Shown: piece by piece, positions 1 to 61,781 of the stretch
Layout: every line of letters starts with the position of its first letter
Position numbering within the stretch: the stretch's first letter is position 1
Origin: Ginglymostoma cirratum
Lineage: Eukaryota
Reading direction: 5' to 3'
Length of the DNA: 64,000 nucleotides
NCBI GenBank assembly: GCA_024137785.1
Contig: JAHRHZ010000002.1
Location: 636,841 to 700,840, forward strand
Program-made: the position numbers and the translations under genes
Notes under the pieces: model-generated
What the model was told of the DNA's origin: nothing
The model's database searches: none
Seen by the model: only the letters and a program-made list of their open reading frames with translations

Positions 1-106
1 ACCCTTCATCAGATTTCTGATGAAGGGTTTAGGCCCGAAACGTCAAGTTTTCCTGCTCCTATGATGCTGCTTGACCTGCTGTGTTCATCCAGCCCCATGC
101 TTGTTA
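1..106 (+). mobile_element. Short non-autonomous PLE-tail element (hammerhead-bearing), with an inverted partial copy at the window edge
   Basis: 13-106 matches the 3' tail of the Neptune element (52998-53126 minus; 57324-57359); 1-13 ACCCTTCATCAGA is the reverse complement of 16-28. Confidence 0.85.
13..48 (+). ncRNA. Minimal type I hammerhead ribozyme motif
   Basis: ATTT-CTGATGA-A-GGGT(TTAG)GCCC-GAAAC-GTC|AAGT: intact core, stem II GGGU/GCCC, stem I AUUU/AAGU, palindromic ACGU in place of stem III. Confidence 0.75.
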
Positions 107-2761: not shown

Positions 2762-2905
2762 GTAAGAACTGCCGATTCTGGAGTCTGAGATAACACAGTA
2801 TGGAGCTGGAGGAACACAGCGGGTCCCGACTCGAAACGTCAGCTTTCCTGTTCTTCTGATGCTGCCTGGCCTGCTCTGTTCCTCCAGCTCCACACTGTGT
2901 TATCT
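2762..2905. mobile_element. Fold-back copy of the PLE-tail element
   Basis: AGATAACACAGTATGGAGCTGGAGGAACACAGC ... GCTCTGTTCCTCCAGCTCCACACTGTGTTATCT inverted arms around a GGGTCCCGACTCGAAACGTC ribozyme remnant. Confidence 0.75.
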
Positions 2906-3770
2906 TTAGATATGGATGGTATTTCTGAGAACATTTGCTGCTTTCAAAAATGTCAATTTCACTCGGAAGGCTTTTTCTTTGTTTTTCACAAATGTGTCAA
3001 AAACCACAAACTCCAGTTTGTTTTTTTTACCAATTTAATTCCAATTAGTAGGGTAAATTCTCCCGCCAAAAGTCATGAAGGTTCAACCCAGTAACAGTTC
3101 AAACTCCCAGATTGAAATGGGAGAATCTCCATCACTGAGAGCAGTGTAAATCCATGTTGGAGAATTTTTGGAATGCCGTTGATTTAACAGCGGTTAACCG
3201 TGTCACAAAACAAGGAAAATTCAGTTTAAGGTATAAGCGTGAAGATACAATTAGATACAATCCGTGCATTGTTGGACACAAATACGATCAAGTTTACTCT
3301 AATCTTCGCGCTGTTGCATTGGAAACTCTCGCACACTCAATTTGGATGTAATGAGTTAGACACAAACAAAACACGAAGGGAATTGGCTGCTTGTCCTAAT
3401 CACGAGAAGTAATGCCAATTCTGCAGTTGCTGTCTGATCCGAAGGGAGATTTTTCTCAATTATACACAACAGTTTTCTCTCATTCCTCGTCTCACAGTCA
3501 GGTGGAGCGCAGTATCCAGGGAAAAGAAACAGCATCACTTCTCGGTCACAATGAGAGTTCCTCTAGACTCCTACCCATTACCGGGTGATCGCCAATTGTG
3601 CAGGCTGTAATGACATATTATCCGATTAAAGCAGCGTATGGTTTCCTTGGTCAGTGATCATATTCAGTTGCTAACTGTATAAATCAGGGATGACTGTGTT
3701 TCTGTTCTGATCTCGGACACTCTGTTTCAATGTGTCTTTTTCTCTCACTATCCCGAAAGCAGAAATCCAC

Positions 3771-13786: not shown

Positions 13787-14298
13787 GCAAAGTGGCATAG
13801 TGGTAAGCACTGCTGCTTTGCAGAACCAGGTTCATTTGTAGAGATAGCAAGAACTGCAGACGCTGGAATCAGAGACAACACAGCATGGAGCTGGAGGAAC
13901 ACACAGGGTAGGCAGCATCAGAGGAGCAGGAAAGTTGACGTTTCAGGTCTGAAGAAGGTTCCCAACCCAAAACATAAACTTTCCTGTTCCTCCGATACTG
14001 CCTAACCTGCTGAGGTCCTCCAGCTCCACATTGTGTTGTCTCTGACTCCAGTATCTGCAGTTCTTGCTATCTCTGAGTGAGTTATAAACCCACTGAGAAG
14101 CCTCTTCCAAGGTTACCCACCCTGAAAACCCATTTCTGAAGAAGGGTCCCAACCCAAAACGTCAACTTACCTGCTCCTCTGATGCAGGTTCAATTGTAAG
14201 CTTTTGGGGACTGCCTCTGTGCAGTCTGTGTGCATTTGCTTTTGTTTGCTCCCACAGTCCAAGGATGTGTAGGTCATATGGCTTGGCCAGGGATTCTA
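13787..14298 (+). mobile_element. Degenerate HE1-type SINE interrupted by PLE-tail elements
   Basis: A box TGGCATAGTGG, body CCCACAGTCCAAGGATGTG, tail GGGATTCTATG; split at its B box with duplication CAGGTTCA(T/A)TTGTA at 13827-13840 and 14185-14198. Confidence 0.7.
13841..14184. mobile_element. Fold-back PLE-tail element (13841-14073) plus a second partial copy (14131-14184)
   Basis: GAGATAGCAAGAACTGCAGA...TCTGCAGTTCTTGCTATCTC inverted arms of ~100 bp; centres carry CTGAAGAAGG..ACCCAAAAC ribozyme remnants. Confidence 0.85.
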
Positions 14299-15399
14299 TG
14301 AAATTAGCTCACTAAAACCAAGAGATGACTTTCCTTGTCCTTCCATCTCCACGAGTGAGCTTGTGTGGTTGCATTTCGCAAAGTGGTGAATCAGAAAGTT
14401 GTTTTCGAATTCATGTAGCTGCAGTGGACTAGGCATGAATATATGAGTGAGCTGTTGAAGAAATGGAAAGAATTTTCTTTGCCCAGATATTAGCATTTAG
14501 TTGGTTACCAGATGAAATGCAGAAAGAGCTAGGTAATTTCATGAATCCAGTCTTTTACAGATAGCATCTTTTGGAGGAAAGCACCTTCTATTGCAACAAT
14601 TCTTAAATCTATTTATCACACATAAGTCAGAGGAGAGTGTCAGTACCATTCCCATGACCACAAATGCTGCACTTGAATGCCCTGCATTTGAGCACTTCGC
14701 AGGCTTCAGTGCACCCAAAGTGCAATGGGATAGCCTCATCTTGGGAGATCAAACATTGTTTCTCACACTTCAGTCATGAAGTTTGGAAATAAAAGCATTC
14801 CAAAAAAATGTTTCAAAATGAAATTTGAAAGATTTGCAAGAAAAAAAACCGACTTGTAATATTTTCATATTTAGCAAATTATATTTAGCATTAGCAAATT
14901 ATATTTAGCAAATGTACTCTATGTCAGGTACGCAGCCTGCAGGAAAACAATCCAAATTGGTCAATTGATATAAAGTTTTCTGGGCTTGTTTCACTTCATG
15001 GTGCCTCATTACTTTTTCTATGCTCTTGATTTACCACATACATTTTTGGAGGAACACATTTTCCAGCACCTCGGTCCCAAACCTTAGCATTTCCCTCAGC
15101 ACATAGTCCTAGAACTTGGAATTTGACAGTTTCACAACACTCTGTTAAGGCCAACTCCTTGCACTGAAAGACCACTACATTTCAGACAGAAAATAGAGTC
15201 TCATTCACTAAGTCAATAATCTTCCAAGTGCATTTTTTGTAGGTCATTCAACAAGGCTTTATTTTTGCAAACCTTATTCAAAAATTATTGATAAATACAG
15301 TAAAACAGTTCATTGCAGGAAGTCCTAAGCAATCATGACATTCCTCATTTTGGGCATCAATTCAAGTGTAAGAAGGGTAACTGTTACCAAACATGACAT

Positions 15400-18699: not shown

Positions 18700-19905
18700 C
18701 TAAGTGTAAACAACCTCTCCTTCAACTTCTCTCATTTTCTTCAGATCAAAATGCCTCAGGTATGCATGCATCTTTGTGGGGGACGTGGAACATTTCCTGT
18801 TCCAATCCTACTCCCGTGCCTTCACACAACTCTTTCTCCATTACATCAATGATATCATCCTTCTCTCATCCAGAACTGGAAAAATTCACCAACTTTGCTT
18901 CCATTTTTCACCCTGCTCTCATGTTCACCTGGTCCATCTCGGACTCCTGCCATCCCTCCTTGACATCCATTTCCACTTCTGGGGAAGAGGCTGAGCACCA
19001 ATATACACTACAAACCCAACTCCCACAGTTACCTCGACTATACATTTTCATGCCCTCCATAGAAGATGCCTCAGAAATGTCTACCTTTTTCCTCAAATCT
19101 AAGATTCCACATCACCGTAGTTGACAGGGCCGCAGCAGTATCCCATCCAATTCCCATTTTTTTTTCTATTCACTCCCTGAACACTGATAGGGTCACGCTG
19201 GTCTTCAGTTTCCACTCTACTAGCATTCACGTCCCTCGGATCATAAGTCACCATTTCTGCCACGTCCAACAAAATGCTACCACTATCCTCTATCCGGACT
19301 TGTCAGCTTTCCACAGGGACTGTTCCCTCCAGGACACATTGGTCCACTACTCCTCCACTCGTAACATCCCTCCACACCCCCATGGCACCTTCCCATGCTA
19401 TCACAAAAGGTATATCACCTTGCCATTTACTTCCTCCCTCCTCACGCTCAAGGCCCCAGGCGTACCTTAAAGAAAAAGCAGCAACTTGCCTGCACTTCTA
19501 CAATCTAGTCATTTGTATTTGCTGTTCACAGCATTGTTTCCCCCACAGTGGGGAGATAAAACACAATCTGGGCAATGATTTGTGCAACAATGTTTTTGCC
19601 TGCAAAAATGACCCCGGGCTTCTGTATGCCTGCTACTTCAAATAACCGAGATAACAAGCGTGGGGCTGGATGAACACAGCAGGTCAAGCAGCATCATAGG
19701 AGCAGGAGAACTTGATGTTTCGGACCTAGACCCCTCATCAGAAAACTTCAAATAACCGTTGTGTTCTCTGATCAACATCTCTGCCTCAGGCTTGCTACAG
19801 TAAGCCAGTCGGTTCAGCACAATCTGAAAGAACAGCATTCTGTTTTCATCTTGGGGATGTGGCAGCCTTCAGGGCTCAACATTCAGTTCAATACTTTTGG
19901 GGCCT
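18700..19905 (+). mobile_element. Old Neptune-type PLE remnant (RT C-terminus and GIY-YIG)
   Basis: LFLHYINDI, FHPALMFTWSISD, AFHRDCSLQDTLVH, GTFPC, NLVICICCSQ..GE; colinear with 55800-57010. Confidence 0.8.
19649..19744 (-). mobile_element. 96-bp PLE-tail/hammerhead insertion with 14-bp TSD
   Basis: ACTTCAAATAACCG at 19635-19648 and 19745-19758; minus strand CTGATGAGGGGTCTAGGTCCGAAACATCAAG. Confidence 0.9.
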
Positions 19906-30480: not shown

Positions 30481-30611
30481 GTCTCATTACACATTTGTGG
30501 CTAAGAAGCTATACGTCCGTTAGAGTGCTGAAATAGCTGCATCAAAGGGCAAAACAGTGCATAATTGACAGCTCTGTCTGTCTGAGCAATTTTATCAATT
30601 ATGCAGACATA

Positions 30612-30802
30612 ATAGGTACTGCAGATGCTGGAGAATCCGAGATAACAAGGTGTGGAGCTGGATGAACATAGCAGGCAAAGCAGCATCATAGGAGCAGGAA
30701 AGCTTGACGTTTCAGACCTAGACTCTAGGCCCGAAACGTCAAGCTTTCCTGCTCCTATGATGCTTCTTCGCCTGTGTTCATCCAGCTCCACACCTTGTTA
30801 TC
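30612..30802. mobile_element. Fold-back PLE-tail element in MHC intron 4
   Basis: GATAACAAGGTGTGGAGCTGGATGAACA..AAGCTTGACGTTTC / GAAACGTCAAGCTT..TGTTCATCCAGCTCCACACCTTGTTATC; centre GACCTAGACTCTAGGCCC. Confidence 0.9.
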
Positions 30803-32659: not shown

Positions 32660-33580
32660 AAGGTAACATAACAATGCTGTCTGAAAAAGAGGCAGAATCC
32701 AGAGAGCTATAGCCTTATATCAGTCACAGGCAAAATACTGAAACCTGTTATTAGGATCACGGTAACAGGATAATAATCTGATTACAGAGTTAACATGGAT
32801 TTATCGTAGGGACATAATGTTTGACCAATCTATTTCAGCGTTTCAATGACATAATGAATATGATAAATAATGGGAGAGACAATGCCCTCTAGTTTTGGAC
32901 TCCCCTACCCTGGGGAAAAGACCTTGATGATTCACTCCATCCATTCGCCTTATGATTTTATAAACATCTATAACGTCACCCCTCAGGCTCTGTTAGTATA
33001 TAGTATTTGAATTTCAGATCAGTTTTGATAAGGTGCTAGATAAAAGGTTATTCCAGAAAATAAGGATTCATGGGATTCAGGACTGATTAATGGACAAAAT
33101 GCAGAGAGTCAGGTTAAATAGGTCATATTCAGATTGGCAAGCTGGAACTAGCAAGGACCCTGTAAGGATCAGTACCCAAGTCAGCCCTGAGGACACAGAG
33201 ATAGCAAGAACTGCAGATGCTGGAGTCAGAGTCAACACAGTGTGGAGCTGGAGGAAGATAGCAGGTCAGGCAACATCAGAGCAGCAGTTCGGATGAAAGG
33301 TCCCGACCCAAAACATCGACTCTCCTGCTCCTCTGATGCTGCCTGACCTGCTGTGTTCCTCCAGCTCCGCAGTGTGTTGAGCCTAAGAACATAATGTTGC
33401 TGAGGGATGTAGAAAAGATGTAGGATAGGGCAGTCAGAATACAATGCATACAAGCATTAAATTAGTAGAAAAACAGGAAAAGCAGCATTTTTTTGGAATG
33501 GTGAAGGAGTGAGGAATATTTACAATTGGAGGGATATAGGTATTCCCTGTTTGTCGAATCACAGGATGGTTACGGCATAG
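32660..33580 (+). mobile_element. Old CR1 RT fragments in MHC intron 2
   Basis: HGF..CLTNL, FDKV, QRVRLNRSYSDW remnants, interrupted by younger inserts. Confidence 0.55.
33198..33380. mobile_element. Fold-back PLE-tail element in MHC intron 2
   Basis: TCAACACAGTGTGGAGCTGGAGGAA / TTCCTCCAGCTCCGCAGTGTGTTGA arms; centre TTCGGATGAAAGGTCCCGACCCAAAACATC. Confidence 0.8.
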
Positions 33581-33589
33581 AGGGATCCA

Positions 33590-34395
33590 TACTGTCATAG
33601 ACATGGAGAGCATGGAAACACACTGTACCAACCAAATACCCTAAATTAATCCAGTCCCTTTTGCCAGTATTGGCCCATATCCCTCTAAACCCTTTCTATT
33701 CATGTACCCATTCAGACACCTTTTAAATGTTGGAAGTGTACCAGCCTGCACCATTTCCTCTGGCAGTTCATTCCATACACACCCCACCCTTTGTATGAAA
33801 ATGTTTGCCCCTTAGATCCCTTTTAAATCTTTCCTCTCTCACCTTAAACCTACGCCCTCTAGTTTTGGATTCCCCTACCCTGGGGAAAAGACCTTGATGA
33901 TTCACCCTATTCATTTACCTTATGATCTTATAAATCTCTATAAAGGTCACCCCTCAGCTTCCCATGGTCCAGAGAAAATTGCCTCGGCTTATTTAGCCTC
34001 TCCCTTTAGCCCAACCCTGCAGCCCTGGCAACATCCTTCTAAGTCTTTTCTGAACCCTTCCAAATTCTTTCCTATAGCAAGGAGACCAGACTTGAACGCA
34101 GCGTTCCCATACTGGCCTAACCATTGCCTGTGCAGCCACATGACGTCCCAACATACTCAATGCACTGACCAATAAAGGCAAGTGTACCAAACGCTTTCTT
34201 CACTACTCTGTCTACCTCCCACTCCAAGGAACTGTTAACCTGTGCCCCAAGGTCCCTTTGATTGGCAACACTCCTGAGGACCTCATCATCAAGCATACAA
34301 GTCCTCCCCTGATTTGCCCTACCAATATCTAGCGCCTCACATTTATCTAGATTAAACTCCAGATACCACTCATCATCTGTTGTTTCTGTGCCAGC
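33590..34395 (-). mobile_element. CR1 LINE 3' fragment
   Basis: MVRPVWERCVQVWSPCYRK..RVQKRLRRMLPGL; tail complement CATAGACATGGAGAGCATGGAAAC. Confidence 0.8.
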
Positions 34396-34720
34396 CCTCT
34401 ACAATAGTGACTCAACCAGACCCAATCCACCCACCATTTCAGAGATAAAATGGCAGGGAGTGAAACATAAATGAGTAAGGAAGGGGGAATGGAGAGACAT
34501 GAAGGGTTGAAGAGAATAGAGACATGGGAAATAGGGGCACTTAAGAGGCACGGAGGATGGAGGAATAGATAAACACTGGAATGGGGAAAATAGAGAGACA
34601 CAGAGGATGGGGGTAATAAAAAAAGACAGGGGGAGTGGGGATAACAGAGAAAAATGAGGAATAAGGGTGGGGAATGGGTAACAGACAAACACAAGGGGTC
34701 AGATAGAGGGGTAATCTCAC

Positions 34721-34981
34721 CTCCACTCTGGTTGGTGCGGTTTAAGGCTGTCTGAATATTGGTCAGCCCGATGTGCTCAGAGCTCCTCAGGACCTGAGCC
34801 TGCTGTTCCCAATACTCAGGGCCGTGACATTCTGCCATCCATCGTTGCAGAGGGATCAATTTGCGAAGATCACTGTCATAGTAATCTATCGGAATGTCAT
34901 CGACATAACCAACAGCCAGAAACTTGGGGAGACCATGAATTGGGGTCATTGCAGTGTAGAAATAGCGGAGGGAATGAGAGC
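34721..34981 (-). CDS. MHC class I heavy chain exon 2 (alpha1)
   Basis: 261 nt, TGTTTCAG| and |GTGAGA; GSHSLRYFYTAM..PKFLAVGYVDD..YDSD..GPEYWEQQ..RTNQSG. Confidence 0.97.
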
Positions 34982-35026
34982 CTGAAACAGGGAGAGAGGG
35001 AAACAATAGGACATGTACCTCAAACA

Positions 35027-35730
35027 CGTCACAGAGTTCCTTGTAAATAAAATCTGACATGAGAGACCAGACTATAAATCCCAATGCAAAAGCCCCTGTA
35101 AATAAACCCTACAACAGACAGTCTCCCGTAAGCAACCGTAACACACACAGCCCCCTGTAAATAAACCCTCGACACACAGTCCCTGTAAATAAACCGTCGA
35201 CACAGAACTCCTTCTAAAATAAACCCAAAAACACAGAGAGCCCTATCATTTTTTTTTTCTTTATTCATTCACGGGATGAGGGTGTCGCTGCCCAGGCAGC
35301 ATTTATTGCCCATCCCAAATTGCCCAGCAGGCAGTTCAGAGTCAACCACATTGCTCAGAGTCTGCAGTCACATGTAGGCCAGACCAGGTAAGGATGCAGT
35401 TTCTTTCCCTAAAGGACATTAGTGAACCAGGTGGGTTTTTCCGACAAGTGACAACAGATTAATGGTCTGTTAATTCCAGATATTTATTGAATTGACATTC
35501 CACCATCGGCCATTGCAGGATTTGAACCCAGGTCCCCAGAACATTATCTGGGTCTCTGGATTGATAGTCCACTGATAATATCACTAGACCATCACCTCCC
35601 CTTATGAATGAACCCCAAAACACAGAGACCCCTTGAAGATAAACAATAAAACGCAGAAGGCCCTGTAAATAAACCCTAAAACGCAAAGGGCCCCGCAAAT
35701 AAACCCCAACACCGAGACACCGTAAATAAG
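35027..35730. repeat. Degenerate ~30-bp minisatellite in MHC intron 1, split by a SINE
   Basis: Recurrent ACAGAG..CCCTGTAAATAAACC units at 35027-35247 and 35602-35730. Confidence 0.75.
35249..35601 (-). mobile_element. Full-length tRNA-head bipartite SINE
   Basis: Minus: GGGGAGGTGATGGTCTAGTG (A box), GGTTCAAATCC (B box), body CCTTACCTGGTCTGGCCTACATGTGAC, tail GGGCAATTTGGGATGGGCAATAAATG..GAATGAATAAAG(A)n. Confidence 0.9.
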
Positions 35731-37511: not shown

Positions 37512-38201
37512 TGAATTGACCTGAGTCTCTGTGGAGGTTTTAAACGACCTCAGTGAAGGGAAAGTTTTCTGGGCTTGGGGCTGTAATTCACTTAATGTTT
37601 GAGGAGATGGGCTGTCCCTCACTCCATCAAACACAAGAAGGCACTTCGAAAATCTGAGTACAAAACTGGGGAAGGGGGAACGAAGAAACTCAGCAGGTCT
37701 GGCAGCGTCTCTGTAGGGAAAACAGTGTTAACGTTTCGAGGCCAAGATGGCTCTTCTGTGGGACTGAAGTGGGCTGTCAAAATGAAGGAGTGGAACAAAC
37801 GATAAAGGTGCCTCAAAGCAAAAGGCAAAGGGTGTGTTTCCTGTGATTGGAAAAGATGTAGATGTGTTTTCTTTCCAGAAATGCAGCCAGACTGAGTTTC
37901 TCCAGAAATTTCTGATTTTTGTTCTGGCAGAGAGTATATGTTTATGGTGGCTGTTAGTAACAGAAAATGTGTAAAAAAAAAAATCCCAAAGAACTGCTGA
38001 TGCTGGAAATCAGGATCTAAAACAGAAACTGCTGGGAAAAGTCTGCAGTTCTGTCTGCGTCTGTGGAGAGAAAACAGAGTTCTGAAGAAGGGTCACTGGA
38101 CTTTGCTTTCTCTCCACAGATGCTACCAGACTAGCTGAAGTTTCCCAGAAATTGTGTCAGCTCTGTTTAGGTTAAACACATGTAAACAAGACATAGGGCT
38201 G

Positions 38202-38324
38202 AGATAACAAGGTGTGGAGCTGGATGAACACAGCAGGCCAAGCAGCATCATAGGAGCAGGAAAGCTTGACGTTTCGGGCCTAGACCCTTCATCAGAAATG
38301 GACATAGGGCAGAAATGGACAGAA
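38202..38324 (-). mobile_element. PLE-tail/hammerhead insertion with 14-bp TSD and stuttered junction
   Basis: AAGACATAGGGCTG at 38188-38201 and 38325-38338. Confidence 0.85.
38264..38299 (-). ncRNA. Minimal hammerhead ribozyme motif
   Basis: ATTT-CTGATGA-A-GGGT(CTAG)GCCC-GAAAC-GTC|AAGC. Confidence 0.7.
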
Positions 38325-40494
38325 AAGACATAGGGCTGGCAGAGTTATCAGTATTTACCTTCCAAAGTTGTTGAACTCAATGTTGAGGCCTGAAACTAGA
38401 AAACTAGAAAGTACCAAAAGGAAAACCAGGGACTTATCGTCCAGCTTGTAGTGGGTGTCACTGCAACACTGTAGTCCAGGTAAAGTGGTTGTGATTGGCG
38501 ACAAATCGGTCTCCAGAATAGCCAGGGTGGGGGGCAGCGTAAGAGTAAGAGGGTGCCACCCTCTTCTGTCTTTGACTGAGCAAGTGATTGATAGTTCTGT
38601 GAAAATGTCACTCGACTCGAAACATTAACTAATTCTTACAACAGATTTCTGAGCATTTCCAACAATTTCTGATTTGTTTGGAATTGACATCAAGCTTGTT
38701 GGAGTAAGTGTTTCATTTTCTCCATCTGTTCATTTAAGGGAATAGTCACTATATTCTTTGGACAGCAGTTGCAATAAGTGGGGTTTTATTTACAAGGGAC
38801 AATTACAAGTTGAAATCTCCACCTGATCTGCTGCTCAAAGTCTTCTACCTAACCCCTTACATTCACTCTCGAAAGCCTTAATCTTTTCCCTAACTACATC
38901 ATTCCCATCAATGTGTACAATAACTTTCGGTTTCTCACTTTTCCCCTTTAACAACATGCTTCAAACATTTTGAGATGCTCTTAATCCTGGGACCAGGAAA
39001 GCAACATATTCTAGAATCACACTCACTGCCGCAGAAGTTCTTGTCTGTACCCTTGACATTCTTTTAAATTTTATCAACCCCTGCCTAACATAAAATTTAT
39101 TCTTTGTGCCCTAGATCTGACTATCGCTTCCATTTTCCTCTGAGAGGCTATCCTTTTCAACATTACCCAAAACTGCGTATGAGAGCGAAATAGCCACAGG
39201 AGACTTCTGAACTACCTTCTTAGCTTTCCTGATGGTCATCCATCTGTCTGACTGATCCAGCTGTGTAATCACTTCTCTAAATCTACTAGCCATCTAACTC
39301 TGTGTATCTTGTTTGCCCTCAATGACTTTAAGCATAAAAAGCAGCTTACAATAGCACCTTATATCTAAAATAAACTACCTTTTGGTATTTAGGCATCACA
39401 TCAGGTGACAATAACCTGTATTATTGATTAGTTCTTGCAATAACTAAGATCATATTTCATTCTCAAATTCACTTTGACATTGGGCATCTTTTCACTGCAG
39501 TGATTGTTCCTTGGTCAGAACACTCCGATTGGACAAATAGAGATCGAGGGGCATGCCCATGTCAGTTTGAACACATTCTCGTGCATGCGGTGGAGTAATG
39601 GAGGGTCAAAAGAAATCATTGACTTGACCAAATCAAATCAGCCTGGAGAAAACAATCACTCTGAAGGGGAAGGGAAAATGTTTGTGAGAGAATCATGGAG
39701 AAAGGAGATGTGGAATTTTTTGGAAATCACAGTTAATTTTTGGCACATGGGGATCTGTGACTTTCTGGGTTGATCGAATGGAATCACTGCAGGGATCTAC
39801 AGGAATTACTAAGGATGACGTTTAGGAATAAAAGTGATCTCCAACAAGTTCTGCAACGTATATCCCATTATTGAGCTGCCAGATTAGCAACCGTTACTTT
39901 CTTATTCGTAAACCTTTCAGAATTGATTAACAATAGATTCACCATTTAAGAAAATCCAAATATGACAATGTTCGTGGATTCTGAAAATTGACCTATAAAC
40001 AAAGGACAAAAATAATTATCCATTTTGAAAATACAGAATCTGAATAATACAGATTAATGAACAAAAACAAATTCGTGGGAAAACACAGCATGTCTGGCAG
40101 CATTTGTGGAGGGAAAACAAAGTTAAAACTTCAGGTCCCGTGACACTTCTGCAGAACTTAGTTCTCCATGAGCTATGTAAGAGTGTGCGAAACTTCCACA
40201 AGTCTGAGACGTAAAATCCATGGTGCACATGTTTCCTGCCATGCTCTGTAGCTGGAGACCAAACCAGCCAGGGATTTAGCTCCAAGCCCAGAGCTCAAAC
40301 CCCTCACCTTGCTGCTGAACTTACTGAGAAAGTCAAAAGGACACATTGATTATAAAACCTCATCAACGGATTGTTAGTTTTTAATAAGCCACTAACATGG
40401 GAATGTTATTTATCCGGTGGGATGACAATAGACAGTGGACGCTGACTATGTCTCTATAAAAGCTGTGTCCGCAACTTCCACATCATAGTGACCA

Positions 40495-41974: not shown

Positions 41975-42070
41975 TTTTCTGATGAAGGGTTTAGGCTCGA
42001 AACGTCAAGTTTTCCTGCTCCTATGATGCTGCTTGACCTGCTGTGTTCATCCAGCCCCATGCTTGTTATC
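41975..42070 (+). mobile_element. PLE-tail element with hammerhead motif (41975-42010)
   Basis: TTTT-CTGATGA-A-GGGT(TTAG)GCTC-GAAAC-GTC|AAGT followed by the standard tail to CTTGTTATC. Confidence 0.85.
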
Positions 42071-42627
42071 ATGGATCCCTCAATTACCATTACAAAACAG
42101 TATCGTTTAGTCATGATCACATTCCAGTTTATCGGACCTGAATGTGCACACATTAATTGCCTTGATTCCTTTATTACAACAGTGACCACATATCAACTTG
42201 AACATTATTCACTGTAACTTGAGTTTTGGTGCCCTGTTAAAGTTGATATGTAAATTCAAATCTCTCTTTCGTATGGAAGGCTTCCTATGAACTGCCATTT
42301 ATTAACCCACTGATAGACAAAGCAGGAGGTGGTGGTGCAGTAGATAGGGTCCTTGTCTCTGAGTCAGAGACTTGATGGTCAGCTCTTGACAACTATGAAG
42401 AAGTAGGGTTTTGGCTGGAAATGTTGACTTTCCAGTTCCTTGGATGCTGTCTGACCTGCTGCGCTTTTCCAGCCTCACACCTGTAGACTCCGATGACTAT
42501 GGATTGACTTCATAACAGGCAACGTGTAAATCCTTGCAATATGCTTATGTTGAGAGGCTGAGTCGATACAATGGAGAGAATTTGCTTTCTGTTCAGGGAG
42601 CTCTGTGAGTCTTTATGGGTGACCTTA

Positions 42628-44922: not shown

Positions 44923-45792
44923 TTGTTGGCCACAGCATGTAGCTGTATGATGTGGGAGCTGGCTGATCCCATTGTGAATGGCAGCGACCACATCTGCAGC
45001 AAGTGTTGGTTGCTGGAAGAACTCCGGATCAGAATTAATAATCTGGAGTCTGAGCTTCAAACTCTGCGGCACATCCGGGAGGAGAAGAGTTACCTGGACA
45101 CTTTGTTTCAGGAGGCAGTCACACCCAGTAGATTAGGTAATTCAAATTCAATAAGTGTTCAGGGACAACAGGGTATGACTGTAAGTGAGGCAAGTAGGGG
45201 GATTCTGAGTTCAGGAGTGCAGGAGCCGCAGCCCTTGACCTTGTCCAACAGGTATGAGATTCTTGCTCCCTGTACGGATGAGGGAAAGGGCTGTGGACAG
45301 GATGAGCCAGCTGACCACAGCACCATGGTGCAGAAGGCCATTCAAGAGGGGGGAGCAAAAAGACAAGTAGTTGTTATAGGGGATTCTATAATTAGGGGGA
45401 CAGATAGTATCCTATGCAGGCCGGATTGGGAGTCCCGCATGGTGTGTTGCCTGCCCGGTGCCAGGGTGCAGGACATCTCCGACCGGCTTGAAAAGATATT
45501 GGAGCGGGAGGGAGAGGATCCAGTTGTTGTGGTCCACATTGGGACTAACGACATAGGCAAAGGTAGGGTAGAGGACCTGTTCAGGGATTATCAAGCACGA
45601 GGAAGGAAATTGAAGTACAGGTCCTCAAGGGTCACAATCTCCAGATTACTGCCCAAGCCACGTGCCAATTGGCATAGGGATAAGAAAGTTAGGGAAGTAA
45701 ACACGTGGCTAAGGGATTGGTGTGGGAAAGAGGGAGTCCATTTCAGTTTTGGAACCGGGGGGATCTGTACCGTTGGGACGGTCTCCACCTGA
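44923..45792 (+). CDS. CR1 ORF1 (Cys-rich N-terminus, coiled coil, SGNH/GDSL esterase-like domain); frameshifted near the C-terminus
   Basis: CSCMMWE..HICSKC; LEELRIRINNLESEL; VVVIGDSIIRG; CLPGA; HIGTND. Confidence 0.8.
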   Translation: MLATACSCMMWELADPIVNGSDHICSKCWLLEELRIRINNLESELQTLRHIREEKSYLDTLFQEAVTPSRLGNSNSISVQGQQGMTVSEASRGILSSGVQEPQPLTLSNRYEILAPCTDEGKGCGQDEPADHSTMVQKAIQEGGAKRQVVVIGDSIIRGTDSILCRPDWESRMVCCLPGARVQDISDRLEKILEREGEDPVVVVHIGTNDIGKGRVEDLFRDYQARGRKLKYRSSRVTISRLLPKPRANWHRDKKVREVNTWLRDWCGKEGVHFSFGTGGICTVGTVST

Positions 45793-45877
45793 ACCAATCT
45801 GGAACCAGTGTTCTAGCGAAAAGATTAAATAGGGTGGTCAGTAGGACTTCAAACTTCTGAGTTGGGGGGAAGGGAAA

Positions 45878-48835
45878 GTGACAGGGTGTATGGAGTTAAA
45901 TGGAAAGATAAGCAGCAGGATAGCATGTGAGCAGGTGGGTTTAAGCTCGAGGCAGACGAGGAGTGCAGCAAAAAGGAAGGATAACTTAGGAAATCTTATG
46001 ATTTCCAATATCTCTAATAATGATAAGAAAGTTAGCATTAAGGTACTTTACCTAAATGCTCGTAGTATTCGTAACACAGTGGATGAATTAGCGGCACAAA
46101 TCATCTTGAATGATTATGATGTGGTAGGCATCACAGAGACATGGTTGCAGGGGGTTCAGGACTGGCAGTTAAACATCCAAGGATTTACAACTTATCGAAA
46201 AGACAGGGAGGTGGGCAGAGGGGGTGGGGTTGCCTTGTTAGTTAAGAATGAAATTAAATCAATAGCACTGAATGACATAGGGTCAGATGATGCGGAGTCT
46301 GTGTGGGTGGAGTTGAGGAACCACAAAGGCAAAAAAACCATAATGGGAGTTATGTACAGACCTCCTAACAGTGGTCAGGACCAGGGGTGCAAGATGCACC
46401 AGGAAATAGATAGGGCATGTCAGAAAGGCAAGGTCACGGTGATCATGGGGGACTTCAATATGCAGGTGGACTGGGTGAATAATATTGCCGGTGGATCCAA
46501 AGAAAGGGAATTCATGGAATGCCTACAGGATGGCGTTTTGGAACAGCTTGTGATGGAGCCCACAAGGGAGCAGGCTATTCTGGACTTAGTGCTACGTAAT
46601 GAGCCAGACTTTATAAAAGACCTTAAAGTAAGGGAACACTTAGGAGGCAACGATCATAATATGGTAGAGTTCAGTCTGCAGTTTGAAAGAGAGAAGGCAA
46701 AATCGGATGTAATGGTGTTACAGTTAAATAAAGGTAATTACAGGGGCATGAGAGAGGAACTGACGAAAATCGACTGGAAGCAGAGCCTAGCGGGGAAGAC
46801 AGGAGAGCAACAATGGCAGGAGTTTCTGGGTGTAATTGAGGACACAATACAGAGGTTCAAATCAAAGAAAAGAAAGATTATCCGGGGGAAGATTAGACAG
46901 CCATGGCTGACAAAGGAAGTCAAGAAATGTATCAAAGAAAAAGAGACAGCCTATATAGTGGCCAAGAGCACTGGGAAATCAGAAGATTGGGAAAAGTACA
47001 AAAACAAACAGAGGATAACAAAGAGAGAAATAAGGAAGGAGAGGATCAAATATGAAGGTAGGCTAGCCAGTAATATTAGAAATGATCGTAAAAGTTTCTT
47101 TCAATATATAAGAAACAAACAAGAGGCAAAAGTAGACATTGGGCCGCTCCAAATTGATGCTGGAAGGCTAGTGATGGGAGATAAGGAAATAGCTGAAGAA
47201 CTTAATAAGTATTCTGCGTCAGTCTTCACAGTGGAAGACATGAGTAATATCCCAACAATTAAGGAGACTCAGGGGGCAGAGTTGAGTATGGTAGGCATTA
47301 CAAAAGAGAAAGTGCTAGAAAGGCTAAAAGGTCTAAAAATTGATAAATCTCCTGGCCCCAGTGGGCTACATCCTAGAGTTCTGAGGGAGGTGGCTGAGGA
47401 AATAGTGGAGGCGTTGGTTGTGATCTTTCAAAAGTCACTGGAGTCAGGTGAAGTCCCAGAAGACTGGAAAATCGCTGTTGTAACCCCCTTGTTTAAGAAA
47501 GGATCAAGACAAAAGATGGAAAATTATAGGCCGATTAGCCGAACCTCGGTTGTTGGTAAAATTCTAGAATCCATCGTTAAGGATGAGATTTCTAAATTCT
47601 TGGAAGTGCAGGGTCGGATTAGAACAAGTCAGCATGGATTTAGTAAGGGGAGGTCGTGCCTGAAAAACCTGTTAGAATTCTTTGAAGAGGTAACAAGTAG
47701 GTTAGACCAGGGAAACCCAGTGGATGTTATCTATCTAGAGTTCCAAAAGGCCTTTGATAAGGTGCCTCATCAGAGGCTGCTGAGTAAGGTGAGGGCCCAT
47801 GGTGTTCGAGGTGAGTTACTGGCATGGATTGAGGATTGGCTGTCTGACAGAAGGCAGAGAGTTGGGATAAAAGGCTCTCTTTCGGAATGGCAACTGGTGA
47901 CAAGTGGTGTCCCGCAGGGTTCAGTGTTGGGGCCGCAGCTGTTCACTTCATATATTAATGATCTGGATGAAGGGACTGGGGGCATTCTGGCGAAGTTTGC
48001 CGATGATACGAAGTTAGGTGGACAGGCAGGTAGTACGGAGGAGGTGGGGAGGCTGCAGAATGATTTAGACAGTTTAGGAGAGTGGTCCAGGAAATGGCTG
48101 ATGAAATTCAACGTGAGCAAATGCGAGGTCTTGCACTTTGGAAAAAAGAATACAGGCATGGACTATATTCTGAATGGTGAGAAAATTCATAAAGCTGAAG
48201 TACAAAGGGATCTGGGAGTGCTTGTCCAGGATTCTCTTAAGGTTAACTTGCAGGTTGAGTCAGTGATTAAGAAAGCAAATGTAATTTTGTCATTTATCTC
48301 AAGAGGGTTGGAATATAAAAGCAGTGATGTGCTTCTGAGACTTTATAAAGCTCTAGTTAGGCCCCATTTAGAATACTGTGTCCAGTTTTGAGCCTCACAC
48401 CTCAGGAAGGACATACTGGCACTGGAGCGTGTCCAGCGGAGATTCACACGGATGATCCCTGGAATAGTAGGCCTAACATACGATGAACGGCTGAGGATCC
48501 TGGGATTGCATTCATTAGAGTTTAGAAGGTTGAGGGGAGATCTAATAGAAACTTACAAGATAATGCATGGCTTAGAAAGGGTGGATGCTGGGAAGTTATT
48601 TCCGTTAGTTGGGGAGAGTGGGACCCATGGGCACAGCCTTAGAATTAGAGGGGGTCAATTTAGAACGGAAATGAGGAGACAGTTCTTCAGCCAGAGAGTG
48701 GTGGGCCTGTGGAATTCATTGCCACGGAGCGCAGTGGAGGCAGGGATGTTAAATGTCTTCAAGGCAGAGATCGATAAATTCTTGATCTCGCAAGGAATCA
48801 AGGGCTACGGGGAGAGTGCGGGTAAGTGGAGTTGA
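45878..48835 (+). pseudogene. CR1 ORF2 (APE endonuclease + RT) with one premature stop
   Basis: LYLNARS, GITETWL, YRPP, MGDFN, DHN; YRPIS, QHGF, AFDKVPH, GVPQGSVLGP, KFADD; TGA at 48389-48391 replaces the W of CVQFW and the frame continues to 48835. Confidence 0.9.
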
Positions 48836-50295
48836 AATGCCCATCAGCCATGATTAAATGGCGGAGTGGACTTGATGGGCCAAATGGCCTTACTTCCACT
48901 CCTATGTCTTATGGGATCATGCATATGACTGACTGTTGGTGCCTGAACATCCGAAGGCCCTGACTGTAATTTAAAGAACCACCTCAAACATGCACAGTTA
49001 TTCACTTCAGGATTCCTAGCCTCTGTCCTGCTCTTGTAGACACTTTCTTTATCGGGCTGGTCTGGCTTAGTGCATAGTCAATAATATGTCAATCATAGTC
49101 AATATAGTACCACTCTCAGTCTTCCTATCTGGGACTATACTCATTTCTGGTTGCCACCAGATTTCTGGCTGATGTTTAACAAACCAGCAACGAGGATGTC
49201 AAACAATCAATTTACACTTTCTCATGGTGCATTCCAGAAAGGGTGCTGATTCTTGAGTCCCAGGGTCATCACAAAAGTTCAAGATTTAATCCAATTACTC
49301 AAAGCCCCAATATTCCTGCCCGACGATTTCAGGTTAACAGACCACATTGACTAGGTTCTGCACTTAAGAAGAAATTACTATTTATTACAAATTAATCAGT
49401 TCTAACCTCAGAGGAACAAAATATGAATTGTCAACTGATATTTTTCTCAGTTAACTGTATCAGTTATTAATCCCCTACACACATCTACACTGACATAGTC
49501 AACCAAAACAGCATTGATATTATGAGTGGAGAAAAAATATTAGGGGAAGACATTTCAACTGAACACCTATGGGGTGAATTTAATGAGGTGTCCTGTATTT
49601 TCCCAAATCCTTCTGATTGCCAATTTCTTCTTTCCAAGATATTGGCTGCAGACATAGGGCAGTTGGCACACAAATTATTCACTCAGTCACTGCTTATAGG
49701 AAGCAATTCACAGGCAGATGGTGAATGGGAATAGTTAGCCATCTTCCAGTTCTTCATTGCTTCTCTGCGAAGAGAGCAAGAGCGAGAGAGACAGATGGAG
49801 AAAGCTGCTGACTCTTTAGAGTCTGGGGACTTTCAGCCCCTGGTTTTTAACACGCAGGCTATCCACCCACCCAGGACAATTGGATCCTGATTGGGAAAAA
49901 ATCAAAATGCTATCTCTGGGCAGAACTAGCTTGAAATAAACCCAGGGTGCTGATGAGTCACCAGCAGCTTCCCCTCCACTGCTTGAACAAAGATACACTG
50001 TAAATACATTGAGTTCCAAGAATTTGGTTTAGAACTGCATCATCTCCTTCCACGGTCTTTGGTTTAAAGCAGTATTCGTTTCCCATTTTGATGACCTATC
50101 TGAAAAATTTTAAAATATAGTCTTTATAATAGAATTTACGTCAATTTATATATTTTGGATATAGTCAATTACAGCCAGATCATTTGGACAAAAGCAACAG
50201 AAACACAAAAAAAAACACTTTCAGCCAAAACCTGTGATTGGACTTGTTGCCTATTTGTGGAGAAATTTTACTGAAATAAACATTTCTAAGAATGA

Positions 50296-50402
50296 CGAAA
50301 CGTCAAGTTTTCCTGCTCCTATGATGCGGCTTGACCTGCTGTGTTCATCCAGCCCCATGCTTGTTACCTCGGATTCTCCAGCATCTGCAGTACCTTTTAT
50401 CT
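50296..50402 (+). mobile_element. 107-bp PLE-tail insertion with 15-bp TSD
   Basis: CATTTCTAAGAATGA at 50281-50295 and 50403-50417; begins inside the ribozyme at CGAAACGTC. Confidence 0.9.
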
Positions 50403-51219
50403 CATTTCTAAGAATGATGTGTGACCAATAAGTATTTTTATTTCAGTTTGGCGCATTGTGAGCTGATTGGTTTCAATATGTAAATATCTATTGGAAAAGG
50501 TCTTTACTCATTTTACAATGTTTCTGTTTCAATAAATGGTGATGGGGTATGTTTGTACAAAGACAAGACAGCCTGAGGAATTGCTTATGTGTCTCCAGCA
50601 GCAACTGTAATCCATGTGGAATAATCCAGCTGGAACTGGACTTCTACCCACAACCTTGTTCTCTGCTTCAGGGCATTGATGGTTAAAATCCTACTCCAGG
50701 ACTTCAGCACAAAATTTGTGGCTGAAACGCCAGTGCAGTACTGAGGGATGGAAGAAATTACAGAGATAAGGAGGGGTAAGTCCATGGGGGATTTTGAAAA
50801 CAAGCTCAAAAATCTCACTAAAACTAACACTGAGTTTTCATGGGACGAGTGGATTATTCCTTGAATTTTATTTCTGACATATTTTTAGAACTGTCTAAAT
50901 AATAGAATTTTCCTGAGTGACTGAATGAAAGCAAAACAGTCCATCAGCAGTAATAATTGAAGGCAGTCTCTTAAAATGTCCTATCGCATCTGACTCCAAG
51001 GACTTCACCCCTCCCTCACAGCTTCAGGAACGCAGATATAAAGACAATACTGGCACCTATGGCTCCAACTCGTTAACACTTTAAATCAAATCAAACCAAA
51101 CTTTCAGGCCTACAGTTTCAGGAGAAACTCATTCTGTACATAGCCTTGGAGATTATACTACTAGAAACTGAAACTAATAGAATAGAAATATTACAAGTTA
51201 TTTTCACTCGCACTTATAA

Positions 51220-51711: not shown

Positions 51712-51836
51712 GGAAGGAGGGTCCAGACCCGAAACGTCAGCTTTCCTGCTCCTCTGATGCTGCTTGGCCTGCTGTGTTCATCCAGCTCTACACCTTGTTA
51801 TCTTAGATTCTCCAGCATCGGCAGTTCCTACTATCC
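51712..51836 (+). mobile_element. PLE-tail element
   Basis: GGGTCCAGACCCGAAACGTCAGCTTTCCTGCTCC..TTCTCCAGCATC..CTATC. Confidence 0.8.
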
Positions 51837-52489
51837 CTGAATCGAGATACAACTCTTGCTGTGGTCTGTGACATTTATTATATATCTGGAGGGAACCAAA
51901 CTAAGCAAAAACAAATAAAAGCAAAATATGATGTATGTTACAATTAAAAAACAGAAAAACTGCTGGACAAACATTGCAGATCTGGAACTGTCTGAGGAAG
52001 GGTAAACAGCTACAACATTTACAAGACATTTGGAGAGGTATATGGATAGGAAAGGTTTAGACGATATAAGCCAAACACAGGCAAACGGGACTAATCTAGT
52101 TTGGGAAACTTGGTTCAGCATGGACGAGTTAGACTGAAGAGTGTGTTTTTGTGCTGTTTGACCTAACAACTCTATTAGAGAAACAGAGTTCCTATTTTTT
52201 CATTTTTAAAATTATTTTTATTTTATTATCATATTTCTATTCAACATGGAAGCATTCCACACCGAGTAGAATGTTAACCAGGAAATGATCAGTGAGAGTT
52301 GCCCAGGCTGCTGAATTCCCAACTAATTTTAAAAAAGCAACTGGCCTAGTAATGGGCATCTCAGTGAAGAATTATATTCTTCTAGAAACTGCTAAACTCA
52401 TCAACACTGCTATCTTTCCACCTCTTTAACACACACCGAATGTGCACATGAAACAGGAACATGTGTGGGATCGTGTGTTATTGTACGTG

Positions 52490-52815: not shown

Positions 52816-53090
52816 TTTTCAAATTAACAGGATTGTATTAAAATTCTATCCCTGAACATGAAAGAGACTTGGTTTTTAACAGCACAGTTCATAATTTGGT
52901 CAAAGCAACAAAAAACTGCTTCTATTGTTGTATCTGCTTCACGTTTAAAAATATTTTGTAGGCTGAAGTTTGACAACTAGTATTCACAGCTACCTGAGAT
53001 AAAAGGTACTGCAGATGCTGGAGAATCCAAGATAACAGGCATGGGGCTGGATGAACACAGCAGGTCAGGCAGCATCATAGGAACAGGAAA

Positions 53091-53126
53091 ACTTGACGTT
53101 TCGGGCCGAAACCCTTCATCAGAAAT
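53091..53126 (-). ncRNA. Minimal hammerhead ribozyme motif (left arm)
   Basis: ATTT-CTGATGA-A-GGGT(TTCG)GCCC-GAAAC-GTC|AAGT. Confidence 0.75.
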
Positions 53127-54167
53127 GGGGGAGGGGAAAAGGGTTCTGAAATAAATAGGGAGACAGGGGGAGGTGGATAGAGGATGGATAGAGGAGAGGA
53201 TAGGTGGAGAGGAGGCAGACAAGTCGAAGAGGCGGGGATGGAGCCAGTAAAGGTGAGTGTAGGTAGGGGGGTGAGAGGAAAAACAGGTTAGGGAGGTGGA
53301 GATGAGCTGGGCTGGTTTTGGGATGCGGTTGGGGGAGGGGAGATTTTGAAGCTTGTGAAATCCACATTGATGCCATTGGGCTGCAGGGTTCCCAGGCTGA
53401 ACATTAGTTGCTGTTCCTGCAGCCTTCGGGTGGCATCACTGTGGCATTGCAGGAGGCCAAGGATGGACATGTCATCTGAGGAATGGGAGGGGGAGTTGAA
53501 ATGGTTCGCGATTGGGAGGTGCAGTTGTTTGTTGCGAACTGAGCGCAGGTGTTCTGCAAAGCGGTCCCCAAGCCTCTGCTTGGTTTCCCCGATGTAGAGG
53601 AAGCCACAACGGGTACAGCGGATGCAGTATACCACACTGGCAGATGTGCAGGTGAACCTCTGCCTGATGTGGAAAGTCTTCTTGGGGCCTGGGGTTGGGG
53701 TGAGGGAGGAGGTGTGGGGGCAGGTGTAGCACTTCCTGCGGTTACAAGGAAAAGTGCCGGGTGTGGTGGGGCTGGAGGGGAGTGTGGAGCGGACAAGGGA
53801 GTCGCGGAGGGAGTGGTCCCTCCGGAAGGCAGATAAGGGTGGGGAGGGAAAAATGTCTTTGGTGGTGGGGTCTGATTGCAGATAGCGGAACGTGCAGCCC
53901 TCCACTCCCTCCGCTCCAATCCCAACCTCACCATAAAACCCGCGGACAAGGGAGGAGCAGTTGTAGTATGGCGCACTGACCTCTACGTTGCTCAGGCCAG
54001 GCGCCAACTCTCTGACACCTCCTCCTACCGGCCCCTGGATCATGACCCCACCCCCGAGCACCAAACCATCATCTCCCAAACCATCCACAACCTCATCACC
54101 TCAGGTGACCTCCCACCCACCGCCTCCAACCTCATCGTTCCCCAACCCCGCACCGCCCGCTTCTATC

Positions 54168-54859: not shown

Positions 54860-54959
54860 NNNNNNNNNNNNNNNNNNNNNNNNNNNNNNNNNNNNNNNNN
54901 NNNNNNNNNNNNNNNNNNNNNNNNNNNNNNNNNNNNNNNNNNNNNNNNNNNNNNNNNNN
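54860..54959. other. Assembly gap (100 N)
   Basis: N run. Confidence 1.
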
Positions 54960-57072: not shown

Positions 57073-57323
57073 CCTGTTTTTCCTCTCACCTCAAGCCACA
57101 CCCCCATCTCCTATCTACTAACATCATCCCGCCCCCCTGACCTGTCCGTCCTCCCTGGACTGACCTATCTCCTCCCTACCCCGCTACCTACACTCACCTT
57201 TACTGGCTCCATCCCCGCCTCTTCAACTTGTCTGCCTCCTCTCCACCTATCCTCTCCTCTATCCATCCTCTATCCACCTCCCCCTCTCTCCCTATTTATT
57301 TCAGAACCCTCTTCCCCTCCCCC

Positions 57324-57359
57324 ATTTCTGATGAAGGGTTTAGGCCCGAAACGTCAAGT
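57324..57359 (+). ncRNA. Minimal hammerhead ribozyme motif (right terminus)
   Basis: ATTT-CTGATGA-A-GGGT(TTAG)GCCC-GAAAC-GTC|AAGT. Confidence 0.75.
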
Positions 57360-61779: not shown

Positions 61780-61781
61780 AA

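What the first reader, a model, noticed from the sequence alone, without database searches (positions are those of the whole stretch)
19635..19758. Ribozyme-plus-tail inserts on its own as a ~100-bp element with 14-15 bp TSDs
Seen: 19649-19744 (TSD 14 bp), 38202-38324 (14 bp), 50296-50402 (15 bp) and 13841-14184 (14 bp, one mismatch) contain only the hammerhead and downstream tail; the long parent (52998-57358) has a 15-bp TSD, so the same machinery is implied. Ends look non-random: the distal end falls at one of two ..ATC(TC) motifs (CTTGTTATCTC or TTTTATCTC/GCTATCTC), and the proximal end clusters at the start of, or within, the ribozyme rather than at the cleavage site. Inference: either a retrozyme-like non-autonomous family or stereotyped RT arrest at the ribozyme or the adjacent C-rich tract.
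Basis: partly seen in the sequence, partly recalled or inferred. Interest (0 to 1): 0.7.

Follow-up and report, generated by a model that had tools for sequence, protein, structure and literature searches.

The report
Promoter-capped run-off copies of Penelope retrotransposon
These ~100-130-base insertions are real, very abundant pieces of a Penelope-type jumping gene that start at one fixed spot next to a promoter-like signal, so they are likely dead-end copies of just the front of the element's RNA rather than a separate ribozyme element, and they offer a testable clue to how this poorly understood class copies itself.

Summary
The duplications are real (14, 14, 15, 15 bp exact; 14 with one mismatch). 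The parent is a Neptune-type Penelope-like element. The two 3' ends, 34 nt apart, match the known PLE 'tail', published as two internal priming sites.

The 5' end is sharply fixed. Of 71,929 exact hammerhead starts genome-wide, about 39% lack the upstream sequence. Truncation per base there is 20-50 times the upstream rate; the ribozyme cut site shows no peak.

That point is an Initiator-like CCATTTC with a conserved TATA-like TATTTATT at -31, the only such pair in the element stretches scanned. Copies running into the ORF start there too, and G is in excess in front of +1 (29 of 48), as cap copying would give. Short and long copies share haplotypes, arguing against a separate retrozyme family.

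Best reading: run-off cDNAs of the RNA leader, joined in as solos, inverted pairs or direct dimers. RNA data could not confirm the start site. Only one of the four named copies keeps an intact hammerhead core. This scan noted the fixed start before, in this and other genomes.

The parts
19635..19648 (.). target-site duplication, left copy (14 bp; right copy 19745-19758)
19649..19744 (-). solo short copy, element positions +2 to about +97; hammerhead helix III palindrome altered (GAAACATC)
19745..19758 (.). target-site duplication, right copy
38188..38201 (.). target-site duplication, left copy (14 bp; right copy 38325-38338)
38202..38301 (-). solo short copy, -2 to about +97, intact minimal hammerhead core
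38302..38324 (.). 23-nt patchwork at the 5' junction, made of pieces of the target and of the element's 5' end
50281..50295 (.). target-site duplication, left copy (15 bp; right copy 50403-50417)
50296..50402 (+). solo short copy, +24 to about +131 (long 3' end); lacks CUGAUGA and stem II
13827..13840 (.). target-site duplication, left copy (14 bp, one mismatch; right copy 14185-14198)
13841..14184 (.). composite old insertion: inverted arm (13841-13953, -), sense arm about +4 to +184 running into the 5' body (13948-14126, +), third piece about -2 to +55 (14130-14184, +)
52983..52997 (.). parent target-site duplication, left copy (15 bp; right copy 57359-57373)
52998..53890 (-). parent inverted arm: 3' part of ORF, 3' UTR, TATA-like box, Inr-like site, hammerhead, tail; 3' end points at about 53030 (+97) and 52996-52998 (+131)
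53150..53157 (-). TATA-like TATTTATT at -31 in the inverted arm
53091..53128 (-). Inr-like CCATTTC (A+1 = 53126) overlapping the start of the minimal type I hammerhead; predicted cut after 53095
   Evidence: motif assigned by eye against PMC4209133
55169..57072 (+). parent ORF remnant, frameshifted: RT region, CX4CXXC linker, C-terminal GIY-YIG endonuclease
   Evidence: RT domain scored on the close relative L218
57293..57300 (+). TATA-like TATTTATT at -31 in the sense arm
57322..57358 (+). Inr-like CCATTTC (A+1 = 57324) and hammerhead; this arm stops 3-5 nt after the predicted cut site
30606..30802 (.). head-to-head pair of short arms (one long 3' end, one short)
33198..33368 (.). head-to-head pair of short arms, old
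2768..2906 (.). head-to-head pair of short arms, old
41976..42076 (+). short copy starting at +2 with the extra-T form
13..106 (+). short copy starting at +1
51718..51840 (+). short copy of the older subfamily with a 12-bp duplication
42405..42484 (-). old short copy

Best explanation
These are target-duplicating insertions of a Neptune-type Penelope-like element that likely arise when its reverse transcriptase primes at one of two internal sites about 97 and 131 nt behind the inferred capped 5' end of the element's RNA and runs off that end. Shown: the duplications, the two 3' end points, the sharp 5' boundary, the TATA-like and Inr-like motifs at that boundary, shared haplotypes of short and long copies, and the three layouts (solo, head-to-head pair, direct dimer). 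Inferred: RNA polymerase II starts at A+1 from a core promoter whose TATA-like box lies in the upstream 3' UTR copy. The GIY-YIG nuclease makes a 13-17-nt staggered cut. A nicked target end pairs with 1-3 nt of the RNA and primes. The finished short cDNA is then joined to the other target end (solo), joined to a second cDNA primed from the other strand (inverted pair), or the enzyme jumps to another template (direct dimer). Because they start at +1, the short copies would lack the TATA-like box and be dead ends. The template may be the full mRNA or a read-out transcript from any promoter-bearing terminal repeat. The hammerhead is carried along uncut.
For: (1) Sharp boundary. Exact genome counts are 71,929 for the hammerhead start, 40,037 with 5 upstream bases and 32,949 with 15. 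That is 44% lost over the first 5 nt against 9% expected, or about 27,800 copies. In 753 kb of sampled DNA, 44 of 72 arms at risk end in the 10-nt bin at the boundary (0.061 per nt, against 0.001-0.003 upstream), and 1 of 101 ends in the bin holding the cut site. (2) Copies that run on into the 5' body start at the same point: 8 of 30 loci. The ORF's likely ATG lies at +171. (3) An Inr-like CCATTTC with a TATA-like 8-mer 30-32 nt upstream occurs once in the 2,176-nt parent sense arm and once in the 3,115-nt L218, exactly at the boundary. TATTTATT starts at -31 in 92 of 106 long copies. It is 95% conserved in 11 divergent copies (69-83% identity), against 75-77% for its flanks. (4) G precedes A+1 in 29 of 48 copies against 23% background (p 2e-8), and in 13 of 49 copies that start 1-3 nt earlier. 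An extra G marks cap copying in L1 (PMC11702581, passages). (5) Shared haplotypes, short/long: 24/29, 10/7, 5/5. 19 of 29 nearest relatives of the 19649 copy are long. (6) Two internal RT start sites, extension of both strands and uncut template RNA were shown in vitro for anole Poseidon (PMC11167929). Here 18 of 19 inverted pairs have exactly one long-end arm and none has two. (7) 3' microhomology of at least 1 nt in 39 of 56 junctions against 14 expected.
Against: No direct RNA evidence: the poly(A) library (unstranded by the equal mate depths) showed no place where many molecules begin, and its reads mostly run on into unlike sequence, as embedded copies do. The G excess weakens under strict filtering: 15 of 25 overall, 4 of 7 in the second set (p 0.095), and the contrast with earlier starts is then not significant (Fisher 0.09). 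TATTTATT has two mismatches to TATAWAWR. Short and long labels cluster somewhat more than chance on the tree (49 changes against 60.5 +/- 3.7 shuffled; 0 of 200 shuffles as low), so some templates may favour short products. 48 of 121 arms end inside the unit and need trimming during joining, or ordinary truncation, as an added step. The extra T at the boundary (9,210 of 49,820 exact hits) is explained only by assumed slippage.
Confidence: 0.72

Rival explanations
1. Reverse transcription of a longer RNA stalls or falls off at a sequence or structure barrier where the hammerhead meets the C-rich tract, giving a truncation hot spot.
For: The boundary abuts a long pyrimidine tract, and template switches into pyrimidine-rich sequence are common in this family. 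An MFE fold pairs +5..+14 with the sequence just before the long 3' end (z -1.5, weak).
Against: The stop comes after the structured part has been copied. Truncation falls to background within the C-tract itself (2 of 28 arms over 60 nt). It does not explain the unique TATA-like/Inr-like pair or the G excess.
Confidence: 0.12
2. The element's own GIY-YIG nuclease cuts the new DNA at the ATT motif of the boundary while resolving the intermediate.
For: Anole Poseidon protein cuts 5'-ATT-3' in its own repeat on both strands (PMC11167929), and the boundary reads CATTT.
Against: Target duplications show no ATT motif, only mild A/T richness (60% A+T). The A-rich TATTTATTT 20-30 nt upstream is not a hot spot. 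A DNA cut would not add G or an extra T.
Confidence: 0.07
3. A separate non-autonomous retrozyme- or SINE-like family that propagates from its own short master copies.
For: Very high copy number, own duplications, a boundary-linked extra T, and mild clustering on the tree. Animal retrozymes are proposed to derive from PLE terminal repeats (bioRxiv 10.64898/2026.07.22.740005).
Against: No diagnostic column in the young subfamily (best p 0.025 among 96 columns, at the 3' junction base), and haplotypes are shared with long copies. No head-to-tail arrays of the short unit were seen among the clusters. Ends ignore the cut site. Copies lack the upstream TATA-like box. Joints differ from copy to copy.
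Confidence: 0.07

Closest known systems
EN+ Penelope-like elements, Neptune type (PMC8557442 and PMC3846280, passages read)
   Same: RT with C-terminal GIY-YIG, CX2-5CXXC linker and DKG motif; hammerhead in the pseudo-LTR; partial tandems; inverted 5'-truncated arm; optional 30-40-bp tail on one end; target duplications. Adineta pLTRs also hold a putative TATA box and Inr-like site.
   Different: Here about four in ten copies share one exact 5' end and many insert as only 97-131 nt. Duplications are longer (mostly 13-16 bp, against 8-10 bp in Adineta).
Poseidon of Anolis carolinensis, PAc (PMC11167929, main text and methods read; supplements not read)
   Same: Two internal RT start sites bounding the tail, both strands extended, uncut RNA as template, no sequence ends at the ribozyme cut site.
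   Different: PAc's ATG lies inside the hammerhead; here it is likely at +171. PAc priming was reported as non-homologous; here 1-3 nt of microhomology is enriched. The text I read does not describe a fixed 5' end or short run-off insertions.
Minimal type I hammerheads of metazoan PLEs (PMC4209133, results and discussion read)
   Same: CUGANGA ... GAAAC-GUC core with palindromic helix III; thousands of dispersed single motifs and close opposite-strand pairs, which the authors read as probably truncated PLEs.
   Different: That paper does not map ends or duplications. The dispersed motifs here are bounded units with a fixed start.
Non-LTR retrozymes (PMC7229834, passages; bioRxiv 10.64898/2026.07.22.740005, abstract to discussion)
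   Same: Type I hammerhead, PLE-related sequence, long duplications.
   Different: Retrozymes are tandem repeats of 150-450 bp whose monomer is cut out between ribozyme sites and circularised. These copies are solos or inverted pairs bounded by +1 and the priming sites, with a minimal core.
Minus-strand strong-stop DNA of LTR retroelements (recalled, not from a call)
   Same: Internal priming near the RNA 5' end, run-off at the cap, then a template jump.
   Different: Here priming is by nicked target DNA, not tRNA; there is no integrase; and the run-off product itself is inserted.

Membership tests
EN+ Penelope-like element (parent) | single ORF with RT and C-terminal GIY-YIG endonuclease | tested here: met
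   GIY-YIG E 6e-4 in window ORF 55708-57069; RVT_1 E 1e-6 in L218; both below Pfam's curated cut-offs; these copies are frameshifted
EN+ Penelope-like element (parent) | pseudo-LTR from partial tandem, with hammerhead | tested here: met
   L218 and 6 of 30 loci show 3' UTR + hammerhead + tail running on into the 5' body
EN+ Penelope-like element (parent) | optional 30-40-bp tail and inverted truncated arm | tested here: met
   3' ends 34 nt apart; inverted arms in the parent and in 19 short pairs
Neptune clade | CX2-5CXXC zinc-finger linker between RT and EN | tested here: met
   CNRRKCYTC in L218; criterion from PMC8557442
Neptune clade | placement in an RT phylogeny (Nematis also has a linker) | not tested
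   no tree against reference PLE RTs was built
Minimal type I hammerhead | CUGANGA, stem II, GAAA, palindromic helix III, NUH triplet | tested here: met
   met by eye in the parent and 38202-38301, not met in the other three named copies; no Rfam hit
Minimal type I hammerhead | self-cleavage | not testable with these tools
   no footprint in DNA: 1 of 101 5' ends in the cut-site bin; 2 of 248 arms have a 3' end within 5 nt of it
Non-LTR retrozyme | tandem repeats with a hammerhead in each unit | tested here: not met
   solos, head-to-head pairs and body-containing dimers; no array of the short unit seen among 124 clusters
Non-LTR retrozyme | monomer bounded by ribozyme cleavage | tested here: not met
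   5' ends lie 31 nt upstream of the cut, 3' ends 65 and 99 nt downstream
Non-LTR retrozyme | own lineage apart from the autonomous element | tested here: not met
   shared haplotypes; 49 label changes on the tree, though fewer than shuffled
Non-LTR retrozyme | small linear and circular RNAs in cells | tested here: inconclusive
   fragmented poly(A) library cannot show them; second run gave 12 reads

The most novel reading that the evidence does not exclude
Penelope-like elements replicate much like LTR retroelements. All copying starts at the two leader sites and makes a strong-stop cDNA that runs to the cap, then transfers to an RNA 3' end. Hammerhead cleavage in the downstream repeat would leave a 32-nt terminal redundancy for that transfer. 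Long copies and the promoter-restoring pseudo-LTR would be successful transfers, and the ~40% short copies failed ones. For: 9 of 30 body-containing loci show a jump directly behind a +1 end, and PAc needs RNA downstream of its priming sites. Against: the boundary-linked extra T is nearly absent from long copies (3 of 151), ribozyme mutants did not affect PAc insertion in vitro, and linkage across the hammerhead was uninformative.
Probability: 0.15. Interest if true: 0.82.

Novelty: new variant of a known kind. Interest (0 to 1): 0.5.

Why it matters
How Penelope-like elements, the closest mobile relatives of telomerase, copy themselves and rebuild their pseudo-LTR is an open question. Schostak et al. 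state there is no obvious mechanism (PMC2377424, passages), and the role of their hammerhead is unknown. About 28,000 exact-match junctions here pin a candidate transcription start to the base, give a candidate core promoter, and record priming from both strands and template jumping. Each is directly testable with CAGE and with the published in vitro assay. They also explain many dispersed minimal hammerheads in such genomes as passengers, not working ribozymes or retrozymes.

Tried and rejected
Rfam scan: no hammerhead family hit. PDB sequence search: nothing meaningful. Genome search with the 38202 copy returned nothing, which the tool says shows nothing for common words. Five of the first eight 100-kb sample blocks read wholly as N and were dropped. 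Later blocks were taken beside earlier hits, so the 753-kb sample is not random. First read lay covered the 3' half of the ORF of L218 by my orientation error. The second covered the leader but could not show RNA ends. Linkage across the hammerhead: r2 was low everywhere, so uninformative about strand transfer. Ribozyme cleavage as the source of either end: rejected. Splice acceptor as the boundary (in D. virilis the intron ends at helix I): rejected, the nearest AG is about 19 nt upstream. Short copies of the CCAGTCC family: none found in held DNA. The bacterial promoter scan is irrelevant to this genome. Literature searches for Penelope + strong-stop + template switch and Penelope-like + microhomology + internal initiation returned 0 papers. 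Shark + Penelope + non-autonomous + SINE gave two unrelated papers. The library lacks most subscription journals and Repbase/Dfam, and supplements were not read, so absence from print is not shown.

Full report
Numbering. +1 is the A of CCATTTC just before the hammerhead (window 57324 on +, 53126 on -). On this scale CTGATGA begins at +5, the predicted cut follows +32, and the two 3' end points are about +97 and +131. The window lies in a 4.36-Gb genome. Earlier notes of this scan call it a shark; I did not test that.

Observation. The five duplications are present as stated: four exact (14, 14, 15, 15 bp) and one of 14 bp with a mismatch. The four inserts are not uniform. 19649-19744 runs +2 to +97 with an altered helix III. 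38202-38301 is complete and followed by 23 nt of patchwork. 50296-50402 begins at +24 and is no ribozyme. 13841-14184 has three pieces, one of which runs past the tail into the element's 5' body. The window holds at least seven more short copies or inverted pairs.

Parent. 52998-57358 is an inverted arm plus a sense arm with assembly gaps. Its ORF remnant has a C-terminal GIY-YIG match. A close relative, L218, gives an RT match and shows the DKG motif and a CX4CXXC linker, which PMC8557442 (passages) lists for Neptune-type elements. L218 shows the unit order: 3' UTR, hammerhead, tail, 5' body, ORF, with the likely ATG at +171. The short copies therefore match the leader of the unit as much as its 3' end.

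The 3' ends. In 753 kb of sampled DNA, the 140 arms peak at +97 (25) and +131 (51). This is the known 30-40-bp PLE tail, which Frangieh et al. traced to two internal RT start sites (PMC11167929, parts 1-3 of 4 read). In 56 junctions with a duplication, 39 share at least 1 nt and 22 at least 2 nt with the template continuation, against 14 and 3.5 expected. Loci picked by their 3' junction were left out of this count. Duplications are mostly 13-16 bp (the search floor was 12). Of 19 inverted short pairs, 18 have exactly one long-end arm and none has two, as expected if each cut strand primes at a different site.

The 5' end. After dropping 19 arms that abut assembly gaps, 44 of 72 arms at risk stop in the 10-nt bin at the boundary. 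That is 0.061 per nt, against 0.001-0.003 upstream. 19 more stop in the next bin inward, and 1 of 101 in the bin with the cut site. Blast ends are blurred in old copies, and the sample is not random. Genome-wide exact counts confirm the step: 71,929 for the 20-nt hammerhead start, 40,037 with 5 upstream bases, 32,949 with 15. The loss over the first 5 nt is 44% against 9% at the rate of the next ten, leaving about 39% or 27,800 copies that begin there.

Not a separate family. Of 29 nearest relatives of the 19649 copy, 19 are long, 7 start at the boundary and 3 abut gaps. Among 82 boundary and 101 long copies of the young subfamily no column is diagnostic, and the main haplotypes are shared (24/29, 10/7, 5/5). 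In the smaller old subfamily one column reached p 0.003 of 96 tested. On a tree of 217 copies the label changes 49 times, fewer than shuffled (60.5 +/- 3.7, 0 of 200 as low) but far from separate clades. These sets were gathered by queries and patterns, not at random. One boundary-linked feature exists: an extra T (ATTTTCTG), in 9,210 of 49,820 exact hits and 3 of 151 long-context arms. I read it as slippage near a template end; that is inference.

What the boundary is. Three lines point to the RNA's 5' end. First, among 30 loci chosen by a motif in the 5' body, 8 begin at +1/+2 and run on into the body, and 6 are preceded seamlessly by 3' UTR. Second, an Inr-like heptamer (YYANWYY, consensus recalled) with a TATA-like 8-mer 30-32 nt upstream occurs once in the 2,176-nt sense arm and once in L218, at the boundary. 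'TATA-like' means at most two changes from TATAWAWR, as in PMC10005294 (passages); the spacing rule is recalled. TATTTAT starts at -31 in 92 of 106 long copies. It is 95% conserved in 11 copies at 69-83% identity, against 75% and 77% on either side. Two distant copies keep an Inr-like CCAGTCC. Third, G precedes A+1 in 29 of 48 copies against 23% background, and in 13 of 49 that start 1-3 nt earlier. A second set fetched for this test gave 10 of 18. After removing bases explainable by element or target sequence the figures are 15 of 25 and 4 of 7, and the positional contrast is no longer significant. An extra G marks cap copying at L1 5' junctions (PMC11702581, passages). D. virilis Penelope is known to initiate within its upstream repeat (PMC2377424, introduction and passages). 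RNA reads did not settle it: 36,242 reads of a poly(A) run showed no pile of starts, and 86% ran on into unlike sequence.

Mechanism. Transcription likely starts at +1, using a TATA-like box supplied by the upstream 3' UTR copy, which would explain why active PLEs need a partial tandem. The protein binds the leader, cuts both target strands with a 13-17-nt stagger, and primes at +97 or +131. When the priming site is the leader copy, synthesis reaches the RNA end after about 100-130 nt. The product is joined as a solo, paired head-to-head with the other strand's product, or extended by a jump. In 9 of 30 body-containing loci a +1-starting unit sits directly behind a body fragment. Interior 5' ends (48 of 121 arms) would come from trimming during joining or ordinary truncation. 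The hammerhead leaves no mark on either end, in line with the PAc result that uncut RNA is the template. Short copies lack the TATA-like box and should be dead ends. Any of the tens of thousands of long copies that keep TATA, Inr, hammerhead and tail could also serve as a template; I cannot tell these sources apart.

Known and new. The element class, tail, inverted arms and dispersed minimal hammerheads are published (PMC8557442, PMC3846280, PMC4209133 parts 1-2 of 4, PMC11167929). It fails the tests for a non-LTR retrozyme (PMC7229834, passages; bioRxiv 10.64898/2026.07.22.740005, parts 1-3 of 5). The fixed promoter-like start and the run-off reading were not found by my searches. These miss subscription journals and repeat databases, and no supplements were read. 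Earlier AI notes of this scan reached the same run-off idea in this and other genomes. I had stated it before looking. A look-up for TATA, initiator and cap with it returned none.

Verdict. A real, non-random and very abundant class of short insertions, best read as run-off by-products of a known kind of retrotransposon and not as a new element. Interest is moderate, because the junctions make an open mechanism testable.

Noticed in passing
window 34350-35108 (-): Open frame with an MHC class I alpha1/alpha2 match (E 1e-19); the window is probably in or near a class I locus.
   Followed up: no
window 44923-48835 (+) and 58871-61793 (+): Two LINE-type elements with AP endonuclease and RT; the first has an upstream frame with a GDSL/SGNH esterase match.
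   Followed up: no
window 14629-14784 (-): Degenerate U1 snRNA-like copy, 29.7 bits, below Rfam's gathering score.
   Followed up: no
window 53667-54167 and 54960-55460: A 501-bp block is duplicated at 100% across assembly gaps inside the parent; likely an assembly artefact, so the parent's true length is below 4.36 kb.
   Followed up: partly
window 57322-57360 (+): The parent's sense arm ends 3-5 nt after the predicted ribozyme cut; only 2 of 248 arms end within 5 nt of it. It may be a rare insertion primed on a cleaved RNA.
   Followed up: partly
L218:2860-3007 (-): The MFE fold pairs +5..+14 of the hammerhead with the sequence just before the long priming site, a fold that would exclude the active ribozyme (z -1.5; covariation not tested).
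   Followed up: partly
L279-L285, L292: Recurrent template switches from the pyrimidine-rich 3' UTR to a similar pyrimidine run about 250-290 nt into the 5' body, giving internally deleted tandem copies.
   Followed up: partly
many loci, e.g. L178/L179, L340/L341, L342/L343: Opposite-strand arms lie 450-600 nt apart, and many arms abut runs of N; hairpin insertions seem to break this assembly, so inverted pairs are probably undercounted.
   Followed up: partly
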